Positions 6,175-30,187 of a stretch of 64,000 nt of DNA are shown here, piece after piece. The translations under genes and the position numbers were made by a program. The DNA comes from an uncultured Candidatus Actinomarina sp. (lineage in GTDB: Bacteria; Actinomycetota; Acidimicrobiia; Actinomarinales; Actinomarinaceae): positions 364,955 to 428,954 of the forward strand of contig CACPPU010000001.1 of assembly GCA_902635945.1 (NCBI GenBank). Reading direction: 5' to 3'. The notes under the pieces are model-generated. The model had not been told where the DNA came from and did not search any database. It worked only from the letters and a program-made list of their open reading frames with translations. Every line of letters begins with the position of its first letter. Position 1 is the stretch's first letter.

Positions 6175-6696
6175 ATGAAAGATTATTTGTTTTCCCCAAT
6201 TAATAGTGACTTTGCAGCACAATGCCATGAATTAAACGAGAAAAATGTTCCAAACGTTGGAACAAAATCCTTAGACGGATTTATTAATCTCGTAGAAAAC
6301 TCTGATTACAACGAATGCATACTAAAAAACAATGAAGTTGTAGGATATGTAGTTTGTTTTCAAGATAATGAAAACACTATTAATTTCATGCGTGAGATAA
6401 AGCATAAAAACTTTAACGAGATTAAAAATAGAGTAAGTAATTTTTTATATATTGATAGAGTTGCTGTTGATAATGAACATAGAAAAAATAAACTAGGCAC
6501 ATCTCTTTATGAAAACACTCTTAATTTTGCGAAAGAAAATTTTATCAAACATTTAACTGCTGAGATAAATCTTCTTCCTTCTGTAAATGAAGCTTCATTC
6601 AAATTCCATAAGTCTTTTGGATTTAATGAAATACAAACTGTTAAATATTCTGAAGATTATGAGGTCTCATTACAAAAGCTCATAATAAATAGTTAG
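6175..6696 (+). CDS. GNAT-family N-acetyltransferase
   Basis: 173 aa. The block LYIDRVAVDNEHRKNKLGTSLY matches the GNAT motif A (R/Q-x-x-G-x-G/A) acetyl-CoA site context. Confidence 0.55.
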   Translation: MKDYLFSPINSDFAAQCHELNEKNVPNVGTKSLDGFINLVENSDYNECILKNNEVVGYVVCFQDNENTINFMREIKHKNFNEIKNRVSNFLYIDRVAVDNEHRKNKLGTSLYENTLNFAKENFIKHLTAEINLLPSVNEASFKFHKSFGFNEIQTVKYSEDYEVSLQKLIINS

Positions 6697-27700: not shown

Positions 27701-28041
27701 TTGGTCTGGAGTATTTAGATAGAACAGATATTGTTCAGGTTCCACCAAAAGATAAGCAGCCAGCAGAGCCTGTAGCTGTTGAAGAGAAGCCACAGCCAAC
27801 AACACCTGTGCAGCCAGCAGAGCCTGTAGCTGTTGAAGAGAAGCCACAGCCAACAACACCTGTGCAGCCAGCAGAGCCTGTAGCTGTTGAGCAGGCTGAG
27901 AATTCAGTTGCCACTGTACAAGAGGTTCTTGGAGATATGATGGGAGATGCACCTGCTTGCCCCGATTGTGGTCATATAACCATCAGAAATGGTTCATGCT
28001 ACAAATGTTTGAACTGCGGTAACTCTTTAGGCTGTAGTTAA
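24718..28041 (+). CDS. nrdJ: Class II (adenosylcobalamin-dependent) ribonucleotide reductase with a repeat linker and C-terminal Zn-ribbon
   Basis: 1107 aa. Typical RNR blocks are present: PNSPQWFNTG, ACFIQS, the catalytic region SNPCSEY and NLASLNL, plus AIYRDGSK. The C-terminus is CPDCGHITIRNGSCYKCLNCGNSLGC. The RBS AAAGGAGAA lies upstream of the GTG start. Confidence 0.9.
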   Translation: MAKKSGLKVDRKYTTPGNPYNNITWEKRSSKITNPDGSVVFEMNDVEIPSTWSQVATDIMVSKYFRKAGVPQLDNDGNELKDEKGEAVLGPESSSRQVFDRLAETWRHWGETTGYFASTDDAQAFEDELKYMLATQMAAPNSPQWFNTGLNYKYDLTGPAQGFWYVDPKTGKLTEGEDSYSRPQPHACFIQSIDDDLVNEGGIMDLWVKEARLFKFGSGTGTNFSNLRGEGEQLSGGGVSSGVMSFLKIGDRAAGAIKSGGTTRRAAKMVILDLDHPDIEDFIEWKAIEEDKARALIAAGYPADFNGEAYATVSGQNSNNSVRVPAEFVKAVEEDGEWDLIARTDGSVIRSVKARDLWNKIADAAWKCADPGVQYDTTINEWHTSPEGGRIRASNPCSEYLFLDNTACNLASLNLVKFYNDETQIFDIASYKHALRIWTIVLEISVEMAQFPSKEIAQGSYDYRTLGLGYANLGSLLMRKGIAYDSDLGRAIAGALTAMLTGEAYKASAEMAGIVGPFPKYKENSENMLRVMNNHRKAAYDTNDYEGLSHDLIAINQELCPTDLLEAAQQSWDEAVELGTKNGYRNAQATVLAPTGTIGLLMDCDTTGVEPDFALMKFKKLAGGGYMKIANQSIGPALQALGYEDSQVNEIIQYVIGSMSLENSPYVNKQSLMDKGLSENDIEKIENALPGAFEIQHAFNVFVLGEDTLKSLGIEEEEYTSFDFNLLEKLGFSRNEIAQANLDICGTQKIEGAPHLKEEHLEVFDCANKCGKDGERFIHYMGHVRMMAAAQPFISGAISKTVNMPNEATVQDIEDCYFESAKIGVKAIAIYRDGSKASQPLSASSDEGDSDESDPEVNKILEEEAMLVQGNFAPGTSPTRAYAGVNRPRFLLPERREGWTQEARVAGHKVYLRTGEYPDGTLGEVFIDIAKEGATLKGVLGCFAIAVSKGLQYGVPLEEFVDTFTFQTFEPRGMVEGHENIKMSNSIIDYVFRALGLEYLDRTDIVQVPPKDKQPAEPVAVEEKPQPTTPVQPAEPVAVEEKPQPTTPVQPAEPVAVEQAENSVATVQEVLGDMMGDAPACPDCGHITIRNGSCYKCLNCGNSLGCS
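27757..27890 (+). repeat. Perfect 54-bp tandem repeat (about 2.5 copies) inside nrdJ encoding QPAEPVAVEEKPQPTTPV
   Basis: Copies at 27757-27810 and 27811-27864 are identical. A partial third copy spans 27865-27890. Confidence 0.9.
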
Positions 28042-28086: not shown

Positions 28087-28160
28087 GGGCGCTTAGCTCA
28101 GTCCGGCAGAGCGCTTCCCTTACAAGGAAGAAGTCACAGGTTCAAATCCTGTAGCGCCCA
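28087..28160 (+). tRNA. tRNA-Val (anticodon UAC)
   Basis: Manual cloverleaf: acceptor GGGCGCT/AGCGCCC plus discriminator A, D arm GCTC/GAGC, anticodon arm CTTCC-CTTACAA-GGAAG, variable AAGTC, T arm ACAGG-TTCAAAT-CCTGT. It is 74 nt and CCA is not encoded. Confidence 0.9.
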
Positions 28161-28171
28161 CAAGGGTTTTT
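28118..28171 (+). repeat. att-like repeat, left copy (part of the intact tRNA-Val)
   Basis: CCTTACAAGGAAGAAGTCACAGGTTCAAATCCTGTAGCGCCCACAAGGGTTTTT is identical to 30134-30187. Confidence 0.9.
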
Positions 28172-28196
28172 CAGAAATCTTTACACATAAATAGTC

Positions 28197-28219
28197 AAAA
28201 GACCCACAAAAGACCCACA
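28197..28219 (+). repeat. 23-bp direct repeat, left copy (AAAAGACCCACAAAAGACCCACA; internally 2x AAAAGACCCAC)
   Basis: Identical to 29993-30015. It lies 32 nt upstream of the protease start codon. Confidence 0.9.
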
Positions 28220-28251
28220 TTTGATGAAATAATTGTGGAATAATAGTCTTA

Positions 28252-29985
28252 ATGAAAACAAAATTATTATTTCTATTAGTATTTTTAATTTCCTGTTCCG
28301 GTACCTTATCAAATGAGGAAAATAACGAATCTAGCCCCGAATCAACAACTACTACTTCAACAATTCCTATTGAAGAACAGTTGCTTATAAAAAATATTAA
28401 GGATGGAAAAAAAGGTGTCGTAAGAATTGTAACTAAAGGGATAAAAATTGAAGAATCGAGTGATAATCAACTGGTAAAAACTCAAGGTGGTAGTTCTGGT
28501 TCAGGTTTTTTTATTTCAACAGATGGATTCATTGTTACTAATAATCATGTGGTTGGAGGAGCGGTAACAATAGATGTATATATAGGTGAAGAAAGAAATT
28601 CTTATAAAGCGAAAATTATTGGAACTTCTGAATGTGATGATATAGCAATATTAAAAATCGATCTACCTGTTGGAGGAGCTTTTTATTTTGAGTTTGATGA
28701 AATAAATCCTGTATTAGGTGAAGATATTTTAGCTATAGGATTTCCTCGTGGTGATGAACAAATTACTTATCTTAATGGAATAGTTTCAAAAGAGAAGGCT
28801 GAAGGCAGTAACCAATGGTCTTCTATAGACTACGCCTTTGAGCACACTGCTGAAATATTACCTGGTTCATCTGGTGGTCCAATAATTAATGAAGCCGGTA
28901 AAGTTGTAGGGGTTGCTTATGCAAATAATTCTGAAAGACAAGAGTTTGGTATTCCATCCACAGTTGTAAAAAATACTATAAGCGCAATATTAGAAAATAC
29001 ATTTAATAAAACACTCGGTGCAAATGGTGAACAATTTTTAGATTTTGGAATGTATATTTACTCTTCTGAGCCAAACTCTCCTTTTGATAAAGCAGGATTT
29101 GATGGAGGTGAATTAATAACACATATAAATGGTCTCGACATTACAAAAGAGGACACAATGGATGTTTACTGTAGCGCTTTACAAACAAGAGGAGAGAGTT
29201 CTGCTATTAAATTTAAAGGAATTGATATAGAAGAGGGCGCAAATTTTGAAGCATCTGTAAGCTTAGATGGAACAAAAGCAGATTTTAAATTCACTTCCAC
29301 AACGACTACAAAACCAAAGGTGACTACAACTACAAAACCAAAAGTAACTACAACAACCTCTATTTCTAAACCATATTTTTCAAGCAAAGCGCTTAGTTTA
29401 TATACAGACTCAAGGGGAAATATCGAATATTATGCAAGATGGCGTAAATCAACAGTAAATGTTGGTATATTAGGAAGCCCTCAAGAAAATGATGTTTCAG
29501 TAATAAAAAATATGGCTCTCGAAATGTCGCGATTGCTAAACATAAATTTCCAAGTAATTTATGAAAAAGGTGATATAACTTACCATTTCCTTCCTTTAAA
29601 TGAATGGTCGAATTTTGATTACTGTGATCAACCAGAGAGATTATTTAACGATACTGATTTAAGTTGGTCTAACAATACAATTACCAAAGTAACTCATTGC
29701 TATAAAGTTGGAGATGAATACAGTGCTGATTTCAATTCTGCATCAGAAAATGTTGTTAAAGAATGTAGGATATTTCATATAAGAAAAGATTTCATATGGT
29801 CTATTTCTCCATTTAATTCTGATGGTGATCCAGATGAGTATGGAGAAAACAACTATCACACAGCACAATATTGTAATAACTTTCAAAAAGTATCAGATTT
29901 AGATAAAGAGGTGATACTTATGCATTACTCTCCATATGTTTTGAATGCAAAGACGACTAATGAAGTATATAATTTGTTAAAATAA
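28252..29985 (+). CDS. Secreted/lipoprotein trypsin-like (S1, HtrA/DegP-like) serine protease with a Thr-rich linker and an unknown Cys-containing C-terminal domain
   Basis: 577 aa. It has the signal/lipobox LVFLISCSG and the His region TNNHVV. The Ser region is LPGSSGGPIINEAGKVVGVAYA. A PDZ-like segment is followed by TTTTKPKVTTTTKPKVTTTT (imperfect 24-bp repeats about 29299-29358), then about 210 aa with no recognisable family. Confidence 0.75.
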   Translation: MKTKLLFLLVFLISCSGTLSNEENNESSPESTTTTSTIPIEEQLLIKNIKDGKKGVVRIVTKGIKIEESSDNQLVKTQGGSSGSGFFISTDGFIVTNNHVVGGAVTIDVYIGEERNSYKAKIIGTSECDDIAILKIDLPVGGAFYFEFDEINPVLGEDILAIGFPRGDEQITYLNGIVSKEKAEGSNQWSSIDYAFEHTAEILPGSSGGPIINEAGKVVGVAYANNSERQEFGIPSTVVKNTISAILENTFNKTLGANGEQFLDFGMYIYSSEPNSPFDKAGFDGGELITHINGLDITKEDTMDVYCSALQTRGESSAIKFKGIDIEEGANFEASVSLDGTKADFKFTSTTTTKPKVTTTTKPKVTTTTSISKPYFSSKALSLYTDSRGNIEYYARWRKSTVNVGILGSPQENDVSVIKNMALEMSRLLNINFQVIYEKGDITYHFLPLNEWSNFDYCDQPERLFNDTDLSWSNNTITKVTHCYKVGDEYSADFNSASENVVKECRIFHIRKDFIWSISPFNSDGDPDEYGENNYHTAQYCNNFQKVSDLDKEVILMHYSPYVLNAKTTNEVYNLLK

Positions 29986-29992
29986 AAAACTT

Positions 29993-30015
29993 AAAAGACC
30001 CACAAAAGACCCACA
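29993..30015 (+). repeat. 23-bp direct repeat, right copy
   Basis: Identical to 28197-28219. It starts 7 nt after the protease stop codon. Confidence 0.9.
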
Positions 30016-30133
30016 AATTATTTAAAACTGTAGATACTCTCTGATAACTTCTGATATCTTTTTTTGAGAGCTTAAGTTCATTGACGCTATGAATTGATAT
30101 TCTCTGGTACTACCTAGTATTTAATGGTTCTTT

Positions 30134-30187
30134 CCTTACAAGGAAGAAGTCACAGGTTCAAATCCTGTAGCGCCCACAAGGGTTTTT
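30134..30187 (+). repeat. att-like repeat, right copy (orphan tRNA-Val 3' fragment)
   Basis: Identical 54 bp. Upstream of it, similarity to the tRNA decays (one mismatch, three matches, then none), so this is a fragment rather than a second tRNA. Confidence 0.9.

What the first reader, a model, noticed from the sequence alone, without database searches (positions are those of the whole stretch)
28087..30187. tRNA-Val 3'-half duplicated 2 kb downstream: an integrase-less att-bounded single-gene cassette
The 54 bp at 28118-28171 run from the anticodon loop to the 3' end of tRNA-Val plus CAAGGGTTTTT. They recur perfectly at 30134-30187. This is the classic scar of site-specific integration into a tRNA 3' end: an intact tRNA at attL and an orphan 3' fragment at attR. 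The bracketed DNA, however, is only about 2 kb and encodes just one protein, a secreted protease. There is no integrase, excisionase or replication gene. I also could not read an integrase remnant in the 118-bp non-coding stretch 30016-30133. It is either the eroded stump of a larger island with perfectly preserved att sites, which would be odd for an old relic, or a minimal cassette mobilised in trans.
Basis: partly seen in the sequence, partly recalled or inferred. Interest (0 to 1): 0.6.

Follow-up and report, generated by a model that had tools for sequence, protein, structure and literature searches.

The report
Integrase-less gene cassette at tRNA-Val
A 2-kb one-gene cassette in the tRNA-Val gene of the tiny marine bacterium Candidatus Actinomarina keeps a complete integrase docking site but has no integrase. 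It belongs to a large family of such cassettes that have moved between species and were probably moved by integrases carried on small circular elements, which suggests how this organism builds its variable genomic island.

Summary
tRNA-Val(UAC) lies at 28087-28161, and its 3' part plus 10 nt (28118-28171) recurs perfectly at 30134-30187. The two copies bracket one lipoprotein protease gene.

It is not an isolated scar. The non-coding ends form a complete attP-like backbone:
- a 118-bp P arm, at least 90% conserved in most columns across 41 junctions;
- a core whose crossover maps to about 20 nt around the anticodon loop;
- a P' arm starting CAGAAATCT;
- a tandem 11-mer pair (AAAGACCCACA x2) at the outer edge of both arms.

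The P arm occurs in 30 of 65 Actinomarina species genomes. With 80 metagenome contigs, these loci gave 85 att-to-att intervals (83 analysed as cassettes; median 1.5 kb, mostly one gene, 102 cargo protein clusters rich in defence and secreted proteins). Only one cassette holds an integrase. Two cassettes are 98.6-99.6% identical between species whose adjacent nrdJ gene is 77-79% identical.

Small int+DUF3631 elements, two of them assembled as circular contigs, carry the same attP design. Several carry the same 11-mer variants as integrase-less cassettes.

Best reading (about 0.7): a non-autonomous cassette moved in trans. López-Pérez et al. 2020 described tRNA-repeat cassettes here in outline. 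Earlier notes of this scan reached a similar reading on other Actinomarina DNA.

The parts
28087..28161 (+). tRNA-Val(UAC), intact. Its 3' part from the anticodon loop onward is element-derived after integration (attL = B-O-P').
   Evidence: ARAGORN; Rfam tRNA 73.8 bits.
28114..28171 (+). attL copy of the common core: anticodon stem-loop to the tRNA 3' end plus CAAGGGTTTTT. It has the tRNA-type C at 28117.
   Evidence: 58-nt direct repeat with one mismatch; 54 nt perfect from 28118.
28172..28196 (+). Proximal P' arm: CAGAAATCT plus a 16-nt spacer.
   Evidence: CAGAAATCT follows the core in most cassettes and in the attP or L arm of integrases P0019, P0020 and P0023. Column identity is at least 90% up to CAGAAATCT.
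28197..28219 (+). XX_L: tandem 11-mer pair AAAGACCCACA x2, a putative arm-type integrase-binding site pair at the outer edge of the P' arm.
   Evidence: Perfect 23-nt repeat with 29993-30015. The same position holds a cassette-specific tandem pair in every cassette. Left/right concordance holds in 52% of the 83 analysed cassettes against 4.8% of mismatched pairs.
28252..29985 (+). Cargo: a 577-aa lipoprotein-type secreted S1 (HtrA-like) protease with a PDZ domain, a Thr/Lys-rich linker and a C-terminal region that matched no Pfam family.
   Evidence: the ORF listing; Pfam Trypsin_2 1.6e-26 and PDZ_6 4e-7. Related proteases are cargo of 3 other cassettes.
29993..30015 (+). XX_R: the same tandem 11-mer pair at the outer edge of the P arm, 8 nt after the cargo stop codon.
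30016..30129 (+). P arm (R arm family A) with repeated (C/T)TGATA(C/T)/TAGATAC motifs, which are candidate excisionase or host-factor sites. It ends in the P-type core flank GGTT.
   Evidence: 90% identical to a second copy in the same genome. Present in 30 of 65 species genomes. At least 90% column identity in most columns across 41 unique junctions.
30130..30187 (+). attR copy of the core (P-O-B') with the P-type T at 30133. It is followed by the host flank TGTTATTT... and the low-GC glycosylation island.
   Evidence: CTTTCC is the left half of 106 att copies, against CTTCCC in 59 copies, which include the genuine tRNAs. GC falls from about 36% to about 25% after 30188.

Best explanation
The 2.1-kb segment is a non-autonomous integrative gene cassette of Ca. 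Actinomarina. Apart from its one cargo gene, it consists only of a complete lambda-type attachment site split by integration. At the tRNA it has core plus P' arm (CAGAAATCT, spacer, tandem 11-mer pair). At the far end it has the same tandem 11-mer pair plus a 118-bp P arm plus core.

Inferred mechanism:
1. A heterobivalent tyrosine integrase is supplied in trans by a small (5.5-7.4 kb) integrase + HTH + excisionase-like + DUF3631 element (satellite- or tycheposon-like) that uses the same tRNA-Val site.
2. Its N-terminal domain binds the 11-mer pairs, and its core-binding and catalytic domains bind the anticodon stem-loop.
3. It recombines attL x attR into a circle carrying attP, and attP x tRNA-Val (or any att copy of an array) back into a chromosome.
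4. Repeated insertions give the arrays that build the edge of the variable glycosylation/defence island.
5. The variable 11-mer sequence acts as an address that matches a cassette to an integrase lineage.

Shown here: the anatomy, its conservation, cassette arrays with different cargo, transfer of identical cassettes between species, circular-assembling integrase elements with the same attP design, and shared 11-mer variants between some of these elements and cassettes.

Inferred: protein binding to the 11-mers, action in trans, and mobility of this particular copy.
For: 1. Anatomy: nested repeats in the window. A second element in the same genome (C1:19.1-25.3 kb, cargo HsdM/S/R) has the same layout, a 90% identical P arm and its own 11-mer variant at both ends.
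2. Spread: the P arm occurs in 30 of 65 species genomes, usually 1-4 cassettes stacked behind tRNA-Val. There are 80 further metagenome contigs.
3. Cassette statistics: 85 att-to-att intervals, median 1.5 kb; 49 of 77 cassettes with an ORF have a single ORF.
4. Constraint: the P arm, core and CAGAAATCT show at least 90% column identity in most columns over 41 unique junctions. The 11-mers vary at about 2 positions per unit.
5. Left/right 11-mer concordance: the longest common substring is at least 14 nt in 52% of cassettes, against 4.8% for mismatched pairs.
6. Cargo: 121 ORFs fall in 102 clusters (GmrSD, HNH, R-M, SRA, Hsp70-like, proteases, surface proteins), with a single integrase among them.
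7. Transfer between species: a type II R-M cassette is 99.6% identical in two species whose adjacent nrdJ is 79% identical, and it sits at array position 1 in one and 2 in the other. A 173-aa-ORF cassette is 98.6-99.5% identical in 6 species with nrdJ about 77% identical.
8. Unit of transfer: the transferred unit ends inside the core. The identity boundaries place the crossover between tRNA positions about 31 and 49.
9. Helpers: a 366-aa integrase sits in a 6-kb element at tRNA-Val of SAG AG-891-I09. 24 related protein clusters (42-100% identical) occur in marine metagenomes.
10. Circular forms: contigs from different samples are rotated copies of each other at 6369, 7365 and 5552 bp. The first two have terminal overlaps equal to the assembly k-mer (127 and 141). 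The 7365-bp element has no tRNA-Val core.
11. Helper attP: it is 11-mer pair, P arm, GGTTCTT(A/T)CC + tRNA-Val core, P' arm, 11-mer pair.
12. Matching addresses: integrases P0020 and P0021 carry AACCGCACA pairs, and P0020 also carries the cassette-type P' arm. At least 12 integrase-less cassettes have the same pairs. P0018's P' arm has ACACCCACA, the variant of the second element in this genome. P0019 has ACACACACA.
13. Integrase N-terminus: the first 60 or so residues diverge faster than the rest (48% against 83%; 48% against 81%). The only pair that shares an 11-mer has the highest N-terminal identity (71%).
14. N-terminal fold: predicted as a three-stranded sheet plus helix with pLDDT about 90.
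Against: - No read-level or circular-contig evidence that integrase-less cassettes excise.
- This genome (76% complete) has no non-Xer recombinase and no DUF3631 gene, so this copy may currently be immobile.
- This cargo was found nowhere else, and no same-species empty site is available.
- Foldseek did not significantly match the N-terminal model to known arm-binding domains. The Tn916 Int N-domain appears only at ranks 11 and 24, with E about 4-5.
- P0018's two arms do not carry identical 11-mers.
- P arms do not cluster by 11-mer type (median distance 0.107 within types, 0.116 between types). The matching could therefore reflect something other than simple co-descent, and no binding has been measured.
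Confidence: 0.7

Rival explanations
1. Fixed relic. The segment is the eroded stump of a once larger integrase-bearing island. Its ends are preserved only because one of them is part of an essential tRNA and the insertion is recent. It no longer moves.
For: No integrase or helper-type gene in the assembled genome. This cargo is unique in all data searched. The second element in the same genome is visibly decayed: the tRNA part is truncated on both sides. Decay of integrated elements into att-flanked remnants is the accepted origin of CIMEs (PMC5704250).
Against: Decay does not explain a 118-bp non-coding arm kept at 90% or more across dozens of cassettes with unrelated cargo. It does not explain the exact retention of both outer 11-mer pairs with nothing else. 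It does not explain near-identical integrase-less cassettes in species that are 77-79% identical in the neighbouring core gene.
Confidence: 0.15
2. Homologous recombination, not site-specific recombination, spreads the cassettes. The conserved backbone of about 200 bp between cassettes serves as homology arms for RecA-dependent swapping after DNA uptake. Integrases only seeded the arrays long ago.
For: Backbones are 90% or more identical over about 190 bp. P arms do not cluster by 11-mer type, as expected if backbones are homogenised. Integrases are almost absent from the genomes. The literature on additive islands invokes recombination at tRNA repeats (PMC7771536).
Against: The same cassette is found directly behind the tRNA in one species and behind another cassette in another. 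The high-identity tract ends inside the roughly 20-nt anticodon region on both sides, not at variable points in flanking arms. Insertion next to a naive tRNA offers only 54 bp of homology. The left/right matching of 11-mers, and their sharing with specific integrase lineages, has no role in this model.
Confidence: 0.1
3. The host XerC/XerD recombinases, the only tyrosine recombinases in most Actinomarina genomes, move the cassettes, as with IMEX elements.
For: 62 of 65 genomes encode Xer-type recombinases and only 2 encode any other intact integrase gene.
Against: The att site is a tRNA anticodon stem-loop plus the tRNA 3' half, not a dif-like site. The arms have the layout of heterobivalent integrase sites. 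Dedicated integrases with the identical core and arm design exist.
Confidence: 0.03

Closest known systems
tRNA direct-repeat gene cassettes of flexible genomic island 1 (fGI1 / tRNA-bounded HVR) of Ca. Actinomarinales (López-Pérez et al. 2020, PMC7771536; 'Actinomarina, resolved', bioRxiv 10.64898/2026.04.03.716425)
   Same: Same organism group and same island. [quoted passage not shown] Content differs between strains, and transfer between genera is reported.
   Different: Those papers give no att anatomy, arms, arm repeats or recombinase. The 2020 paper reports a near absence of mobile elements and calls the AG-891-I09 insertions IS elements. The 2026 preprint states that the integration mechanism remains to be identified. 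Added here: the conserved attP backbone, the matched 11-mer pairs, the mapped crossover and the integrase-bearing elements that assemble as circles.
CIMEs (cis-mobilizable elements) and site-specific accretion in streptococcal ICE/IME systems (review PMC5704250)
   Same: Elements without integration or transfer genes that keep attL and attR, stacked in tandem at the 3' end of a target gene, often a tRNA, and able to move with a functional neighbour's integrase.
   Different: CIMEs are described as decayed ICEs or IMEs, few per genome, moved together with a conjugative element. Here the elements are a large, streamlined family of mostly single-gene cassettes with a standardised backbone of about 250 bp. 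The related autonomous elements are 5.5-7.4-kb satellite-like replicons, not conjugative elements.
Bacteriophage lambda / mycobacteriophage L5-type attP with arm-type sites and heterobivalent integrase (own knowledge of these systems)
   Same: A core with inverted half-sites around a short overlap. Direct-repeat integrase-binding sites about 80-100 bp and 125-145 bp from the core on the two arms. The int gene lies next to the P' arm. Repeated motifs in the P arm lie where Xis and host-factor sites lie. For L5, integration restores a tRNA 3' end.
   Different: Here most attP-bearing units carry no int, xis or phage genes. The arm-site sequence is hypervariable between otherwise 90% identical backbones, and it covaries with a fast-evolving integrase N-terminus. 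Binding is untested.
Tycheposons (Hackl et al., bioRxiv 10.1101/2020.12.28.424599) and VEIMEs, marine phage satellites (Eppley et al. 2022, PMC9618062)
   Same: The helper elements resemble these: tyrosine integrase, regulator, excisionase-like protein, replication-type protein and a weak small-terminase-like HTH. They target island tRNAs in streamlined marine bacteria, occur in tandem separated by partial tRNAs, and leave remnants in islands. About 20% of VEIMEs lack an integrase and were suggested to use one supplied by others.
   Different: The window's element has none of their hallmark genes. Neither paper's text, as searched, mentions Actinomarina or arm-site architecture. Membership of the helpers in either class was not tested by phylogeny or encapsidation data.
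Integron gene cassettes
   Same: Promoter-poor, mostly single-gene, recombinase-less cassettes stacked in arrays at one chromosomal site, moved by an integrase encoded elsewhere. The cargo is rich in defence and surface functions.
   Different: There is no attC hairpin, no attI/IntI platform and no single-strand recombination signature. The recombination site is a tRNA core with double-stranded lambda-type arms, and the integrase is episomal.

Membership tests
fGI1 tRNA direct-repeat cassettes of Ca. Actinomarinales | Host is Ca. Actinomarina(les) | tested here: met
   The window's genus contains SAG AG-891-I09, titled 'uncultured Candidatus Actinomarina sp.'. The genome is 1.05 Mb with 32.5% GC.
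fGI1 tRNA direct-repeat cassettes of Ca. Actinomarinales | Sits at a tRNA bordering the envelope-glycosylation island | tested here: met
   GC drops to about 25% from 30188 onward. DegT aminotransferases and glycosyltransferases lie nearby. The other island border (tRNA-Phe) in the same contig also has partial-tRNA repeats.
fGI1 tRNA direct-repeat cassettes of Ca. Actinomarinales | [quoted passage not shown] | tested here: met
CIME (cis-mobilizable element) | No integration or transfer genes, but attL and attR retained | tested here: met
   One protease ORF only; intact att copies.
CIME (cis-mobilizable element) | Derived by decay from an ICE or IME and moved in cis with a conjugative neighbour | tested here: not met
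   The related autonomous elements are int+DUF3631 replicons of 5.5-7.4 kb in which no conjugation or relaxase gene was detected. Mobilisation itself was not tested.
Lambda/L5-type heterobivalent integrase attachment site | Core with inverted half-sites around a short overlap, and crossover inside it | tested here: met
   The core is the anticodon stem-loop CTT(C/T)CC-TTACAA-GGAAG. The crossover is bounded to tRNA positions about 31-49 by natural polymorphisms.
Lambda/L5-type heterobivalent integrase attachment site | Arm-type sites (direct repeats of one consensus) on both arms at fixed distances | tested here: met
   Tandem 11-mer pairs lie about 75-100 bp to the right and 123-145 bp to the left of the anticodon loop. 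They are concordant within cassettes and also present in integrase-bearing attP. Binding itself is not testable with these tools.
Lambda/L5-type heterobivalent integrase attachment site | Cognate integrase has an extra N-terminal arm-binding domain | tested here: inconclusive
   About 75 residues precede the SAM-like core-binding domain and match no Pfam family. AF2 predicts a three-stranded sheet plus helix, pLDDT about 90. Foldseek gives no significant PDB match; the Tn916 Int N-domain appears only at E about 4-5. The N-terminus covaries with the 11-mer in the one informative pair.
Integron cassette | attC imperfect inverted repeat at the cassette end; IntI/attI platform | tested here: not met
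   The cassette ends are direct repeats of tRNA sequence with lambda-type arms. No IntI-like gene lies next to the arrays.
IMEX (Xer-exploiting elements) | att site resembles the chromosomal dif site | not tested
   dif of Actinomarina was not identified. The att is a tRNA 3' half, and dedicated integrases for it exist.
Tycheposon / VEIME-type satellite (for the helper elements only) | Tyrosine integrase plus replication and regulatory module, tRNA target, excised circular or concatemeric form | tested here: met
   The gene sets are int, HTH_3, an HTH_17-like protein, DUF3631 and a weak Sf6-terminase-like HTH. Circular contigs were found. Encapsidation is not testable here. The window's cassette itself has none of these genes.

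The most novel reading that the evidence does not exclude
Actinomarina, and possibly other streamlined marine bacteria said to lack mobile elements, run a tRNA-anchored, integron-like cassette economy. Hundreds of one-gene, integrase-less cassettes share a standard attP backbone. Each is 'addressed' by a short variable arm-site code that is read by the fast-evolving N-terminal domain of integrases carried on rare satellite-like episomes. Many orthogonal helper-cassette pairs therefore share one chromosomal landing pad and together build the hypervariable island.
Probability: 0.4. Interest if true: 0.78.

Novelty: new variant of a known kind. Interest (0 to 1): 0.62.

Why it matters
How genome-streamlined ocean bacteria acquire and turn over their hypervariable islands is an open question. 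These islands carry phage defence, cell-surface and secreted functions, yet the genomes appear to lack mobile elements. The 2026 Actinomarina preprint says explicitly that the integration mechanism still has to be identified.

This locus and its relatives give a concrete, testable mechanism:
- a defined core;
- defined arms;
- a candidate arm-site code;
- candidate helper integrases whose sequences are in hand.

If the arm-site and N-terminal-domain matching is real, it would be a natural set of orthogonal integrase/attP pairs acting on one attB. That would bear on the ecology of marine gene flow and would provide a source of orthogonal recombination tools.

Tried and rejected
- Phage attP: exact-pattern scans of IMG/VR for the tRNA-Val core (two patterns) and for the window's 11-mer pair found nothing. 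A viral-contig search with the integrase found only a distant, irrelevant hit.
No junction or empty-site reads could be examined.
- Circular cassette contigs: none among the 80 metagenome loci.
- Same-species empty site: the right flank has no close relative in the 65 species genomes. Only 65-76% DNA matches were found, in two genomes.
- Serine recombinase: none in the genome.
- Further copies in this genome: blastn-short found only the two elements already described.
- Fold match for the integrase N-terminus: not significant.
- The 11-mers as simple lineage markers of the P arm: P-arm distances are nearly the same within and between 11-mer types, so plain co-descent does not obviously explain the left/right matching.
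- The 11-mers as target-site duplications or as a second recombination site: considered because 'empty' backbones (P' arm, one 11-mer pair, P arm start) exist (L053 from 9473, L055 from 10078). Rejected as the main reading because integrase-bearing attP sites carry the same paired layout. The empties are more simply deletions between the two 23-nt direct repeats.
- Promoter or terminator role for the arms: the consensus scan found nothing above shuffle expectation in the arms.
Full report
**Observation**

The window holds one tRNA gene, tRNA-Val(UAC), at 28087-28161. A 58-nt direct repeat links 28114-28171 and 30130-30187 with one mismatch: C at 28117 against T at 30133, which is tRNA position 30. 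Between the copies lies a single long ORF, 28252-29985, encoding a 577-aa lipoprotein-type S1 protease with a PDZ domain. A second, nested perfect 23-nt direct repeat, AAAAGACCCACAAAAGACCCACA, lies at 28197-28219, 25 nt after the left repeat. It recurs at 29993-30015, 8 nt after the stop codon and 118 nt before the right repeat's perfect block. GC content falls from about 36% left of the tRNA to about 25% right of 30188, where sugar-modification genes begin.

**Organism and genome**

The window is C1:364955-428954 of a 1.05-Mb, 17-contig, 32.5% GC assembly that is 76% complete. A member of the same genus is titled 'uncultured Candidatus Actinomarina sp.', SAG AG-891-I09. The genome has one Xer-like tyrosine recombinase, no serine recombinase and no DUF3631 gene.

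**A second member in the same genome**

A third copy of the tRNA-Val 3' part lies at C1:25268-25330 on the minus strand. No tRNA gene is called there. It is followed by the same GGGTTTTTCAGAAATCT and by a tandem pair CACACCCACAAAACACCCACA. Six kilobases on, the same pair recurs, followed by a 136-nt stretch 90% identical to window 29998-30133 (the last 18 nt of the 11-mer pair plus the 118-bp P arm), and by CTTTCCTTACAAGGAAGAAGTCA. The cargo there is a complete type I restriction-modification system, HsdM, HsdS and HsdR. Both ends of this element are truncated, so it looks immobilised. Even so, it shows that the non-coding ends of the window's segment are a reusable module and that the tandem pair differs between elements while matching within each.

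**Comparative anatomy**

The 148-nt right-end sequence was searched in the 65 genomes of the family, which is also the whole order in this collection. It was found in 30 of them, often two to four times within a few kb. Twenty loci were fetched. tRNA-Val is followed by one to four units. Each unit ends in [tandem pair, about 118-nt arm, GGTTCTTTCC, tRNA positions 32-76, AAGGGTTTTT]. Each unit starts with [CAGAAATCT, about 17 nt, tandem pair].

In all there are 85 att-to-att intervals, ranging from 229 to 6198 bp with a median of 1.5 kb. Of the 77 cassettes that contain an ORF of at least 90 aa, 49 have just one.

In a consensus of 41 unique junctions, the arm, the core and CAGAAATCT have at least 90% column identity in most columns. 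The tandem 11-mers have a fixed frame (AAA-S-AC-N-CACA in this arm family) with about two variable positions per unit. The left and right tandem pairs of one cassette agree. Their longest common substring is at least 14 nt in 52% of the 83 cassettes analysed, against 4.8% of mismatched left/right pairs. At least nine cassettes with different cargo use the window's variant, GACCCACA.

**Cargo**

The 121 cassette ORFs fall into 102 clusters. A Pfam census shows:
- GmrSD (3 members), HNH, several DNA methylases, NgoPII, an SRA domain, ResIII, type I R-M, MrcB and an Hsp70-like protein;
- trypsin-like proteases (4 members) and a subtilase;
- fn3 and mucin-like surface proteins.

Only one integrase is among them.

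**Mobility of integrase-less cassettes**

A type II R-M cassette is 99.6% identical over 1900 bp in two species whose adjacent nrdJ genes are 79% identical. It is the first unit behind the tRNA in one species and the second in the other. A 0.79-kb cassette with a 173-aa ORF is 98.6-99.5% identical in six species whose nrdJ genes are about 77% identical.

For the R-M cassette, the high-identity tract starts at the anticodon loop on the left, where the sequence to its left is the tRNA 5' half in one genome and another cassette's arm in the other. On the right it stops after GAAGAAGTCA, because the T-stem beyond differs (CAGG/CCTG against GAGG/CCTC). The unit that moved is therefore bounded by crossovers within tRNA positions about 31-49, the anticodon loop region. 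The P-type T at position 30 in all non-tRNA copies agrees with this: CTTTCC occurs 106 times, against CTTCCC 59 times.

**Helpers**

Among the 65 genomes, all but two intact PF00589-type genes are XerC/D-like proteins of about 290-305 aa. A few short or broken fragments also occur, including one inside a tRNA-Phe array in G016. One exception is a 366-aa integrase in AG-891-I09. It sits next to tRNA-Val inside a 6-kb unit with an HTH_3 protein, an HTH_17-like protein, a DUF3631 protein and a protein with a weak small-terminase-like HTH. That unit has its own tandem pair, TTTCCCCCAC, at both arms at the usual distances.

The integrase has 24 related protein clusters (42-100% identical) in marine metagenomes. 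Contigs carrying them come in rotated copies from different samples:
- 6369 bp, with a 127-nt terminal overlap from a k127 assembly;
- 7365 bp, with a 141-nt overlap from a k141 assembly (this element has no tRNA-Val core and its target was not identified);
- 5552 bp, rotated copies without a terminal overlap.

The repeats at the att sites are shorter than k, so the first two at least assemble as genuine circles.

Where the tRNA-Val core is present, the attP reads tandem pair, P arm, (G/C)GTTCTT(A/T/C)CC, tRNA-Val core, P' arm, tandem pair. The pair differs by integrase:
- P0003: CCCCCCAAT.
- P0023: (A/G)ACCCTT.
- P0022: AAGACACAAAA.
- P0024: CGACCCGC.
- P0019: ACACACACATT.
- P0011: GTCCCCAATTA. 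This integrase sits next to tRNA-Ile.

One contig shows a P0023 element integrated at tRNA-Val in tandem with a 612-bp cassette of the window's arm family.

Three integrase lineages have tandem pairs found in integrase-less cassettes:
- P0020 and P0021 have AACCGCACA, as do at least 12 cassettes, and P0020 also has the cassette-type P' arm CAGAAATCTTTACATATAT.
- P0018 has ACACCCACA in its P' arm, the variant of this genome's second element.
- P0019 has ACACACACA.

The first 60 or so integrase residues precede the SAM-like core-binding domain and match no Pfam family. They diverge much faster than the rest: 48% against 83% for P0001/P0003, and 48% against 81% for P0022/P0018. The only pair that shares a tandem-pair sequence, P0020/P0021, has the highest N-terminal identity (71%, with the rest at 69%). 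AlphaFold predicts a three-stranded sheet plus helix for this region at pLDDT about 90. Foldseek gave no significant match; the Tn916 Int N-domain appears only at E about 4-5. The fold evidence is therefore inconclusive.

**Interpretation**

The window's segment is a non-autonomous cassette whose only non-cargo DNA is a full lambda-type attachment site. The tandem pairs sit exactly at the outer limits of what is conserved, as the outermost arm-type sites do in lambda attP (my own knowledge of that system). That explains why cargo always begins and ends there.

The P arm contains repeated TGATA(C/T)/TAGATAC motifs. They also occur in integrase-bearing P arms, where Xis and host-factor sites would be expected. 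This assignment is an inference.

The helper is most likely an integrase of the P0019-P0021 clade with GACCCACA specificity, which has not yet been sampled. Autonomous elements are rare in genomes: int+DUF3631 occurs in 1 of 65. Cassettes occur in at least 30 of 65, a ratio like that of MITEs to their parent transposons.

**What is known already**

López-Pérez et al. 2020 reported that tRNAs of fGI1 in Ca. [quoted passage not shown] They found almost no mobile elements, and called the AG-891-I09 insertions IS elements. The 2026 preprint confirms a tRNA-bounded hypervariable region and leaves the mechanism open. CIMEs, tycheposons and VEIMEs are the nearest concepts.

Earlier notes of this scan on other Actinomarina DNA reached similar readings. 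They are not independent evidence, and the points I use were re-derived here. I found no paper, in a limited search, that describes the standardised attP backbone, the matched variable arm repeats, or their link to fast-evolving integrase N-termini.

**Limits**

- This cassette's cargo is unique in the data.
- No same-species empty site exists in the collection.
- The cognate integrase is missing.
- Binding of the N-terminal domain to the 11-mers is inferred.
- Homologous recombination between the conserved backbones may add to cassette shuffling.

Noticed in passing
G000:C1:19105-25330 (L195:4105-10330), outside the window: A second, decayed element of the same family in this genome. It has a tRNA-Val fragment (positions 23-76) with no tRNA gene, CACCCACA tandem pairs at both ends, and a complete type I R-M system (HsdM/S/R) as cargo. 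Its right att is cut after GAAGAAGTCA. The orthologous locus in another species (L052) holds a different cassette array.
   Followed up: partly
G000:C1:458774-464391 (L196:3774-9391), outside the window: The other border of the island has the same construction at tRNA-Phe: two further partial tRNA-Phe copies 2.7 and 2.9 kb apart. Tandem pairs such as ACGTCGTCCA lie at both arms of one cassette, and AGGGTTTT follows the tRNA end. In G016 the tRNA-Phe array contains an integrase fragment.
   Followed up: partly
window 30112-30168: Rfam's tRNA model scores the end of the P arm plus the core at 32.4 bits, above the gathering score of 29, over model positions 10-63. The attP therefore looks like a 5'-truncated tRNA, not just a 3' half, which hints that the arm end derives from or mimics the D-arm region.
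   Followed up: no
L053:9031 (G008 tRNA-Val); L200, L219 attP: Some elements carry a T-stem variant of the tRNA 3' half with a compensatory change (AGAGG/CCTCT instead of ACAGG/CCTGT). In G008 the functional tRNA-Val now has this variant while the displaced copy has the usual one, so integration rewrites part of the host tRNA.
   Followed up: partly
L053:9473-9620 and L055:10078-10200: 'Empty' backbones at array ends: core, P' arm, one tandem pair, then directly the start of the P arm. In L053 the two 11-mers of the pair differ (GACACACA / CACCCCCA). These are probably deletions of cargo between the two direct repeats.
   Followed up: no
window 27742-27903: The class II ribonucleotide reductase (NrdJ) gene upstream carries three in-frame 54-bp tandem repeats (100, 89 and 70% identity). 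They encode a Pro/Glu-rich linker before its C-terminal Cys-rich tail.
   Followed up: no
L038-L050 (loci), region between nrdJ and tRNA-Val: In this window and in G008, tRNA-Val follows nrdJ by about 46 bp. In other species 0.7-6.4 kb of glycosyltransferase and other genes lie between them, so variable DNA also accumulates on the 5' side of the tRNA, where no att repeats were seen.
   Followed up: no
L194:5842-10882 (G007:C1): A complete 78-nt duplication of tRNA-Ile(GAU) 4963 bp apart encloses a 339-aa integrase (27% identical to the tRNA-Val integrase) and a tRNA-Leu. It is a differently built integrative element in the same genus.
   Followed up: no
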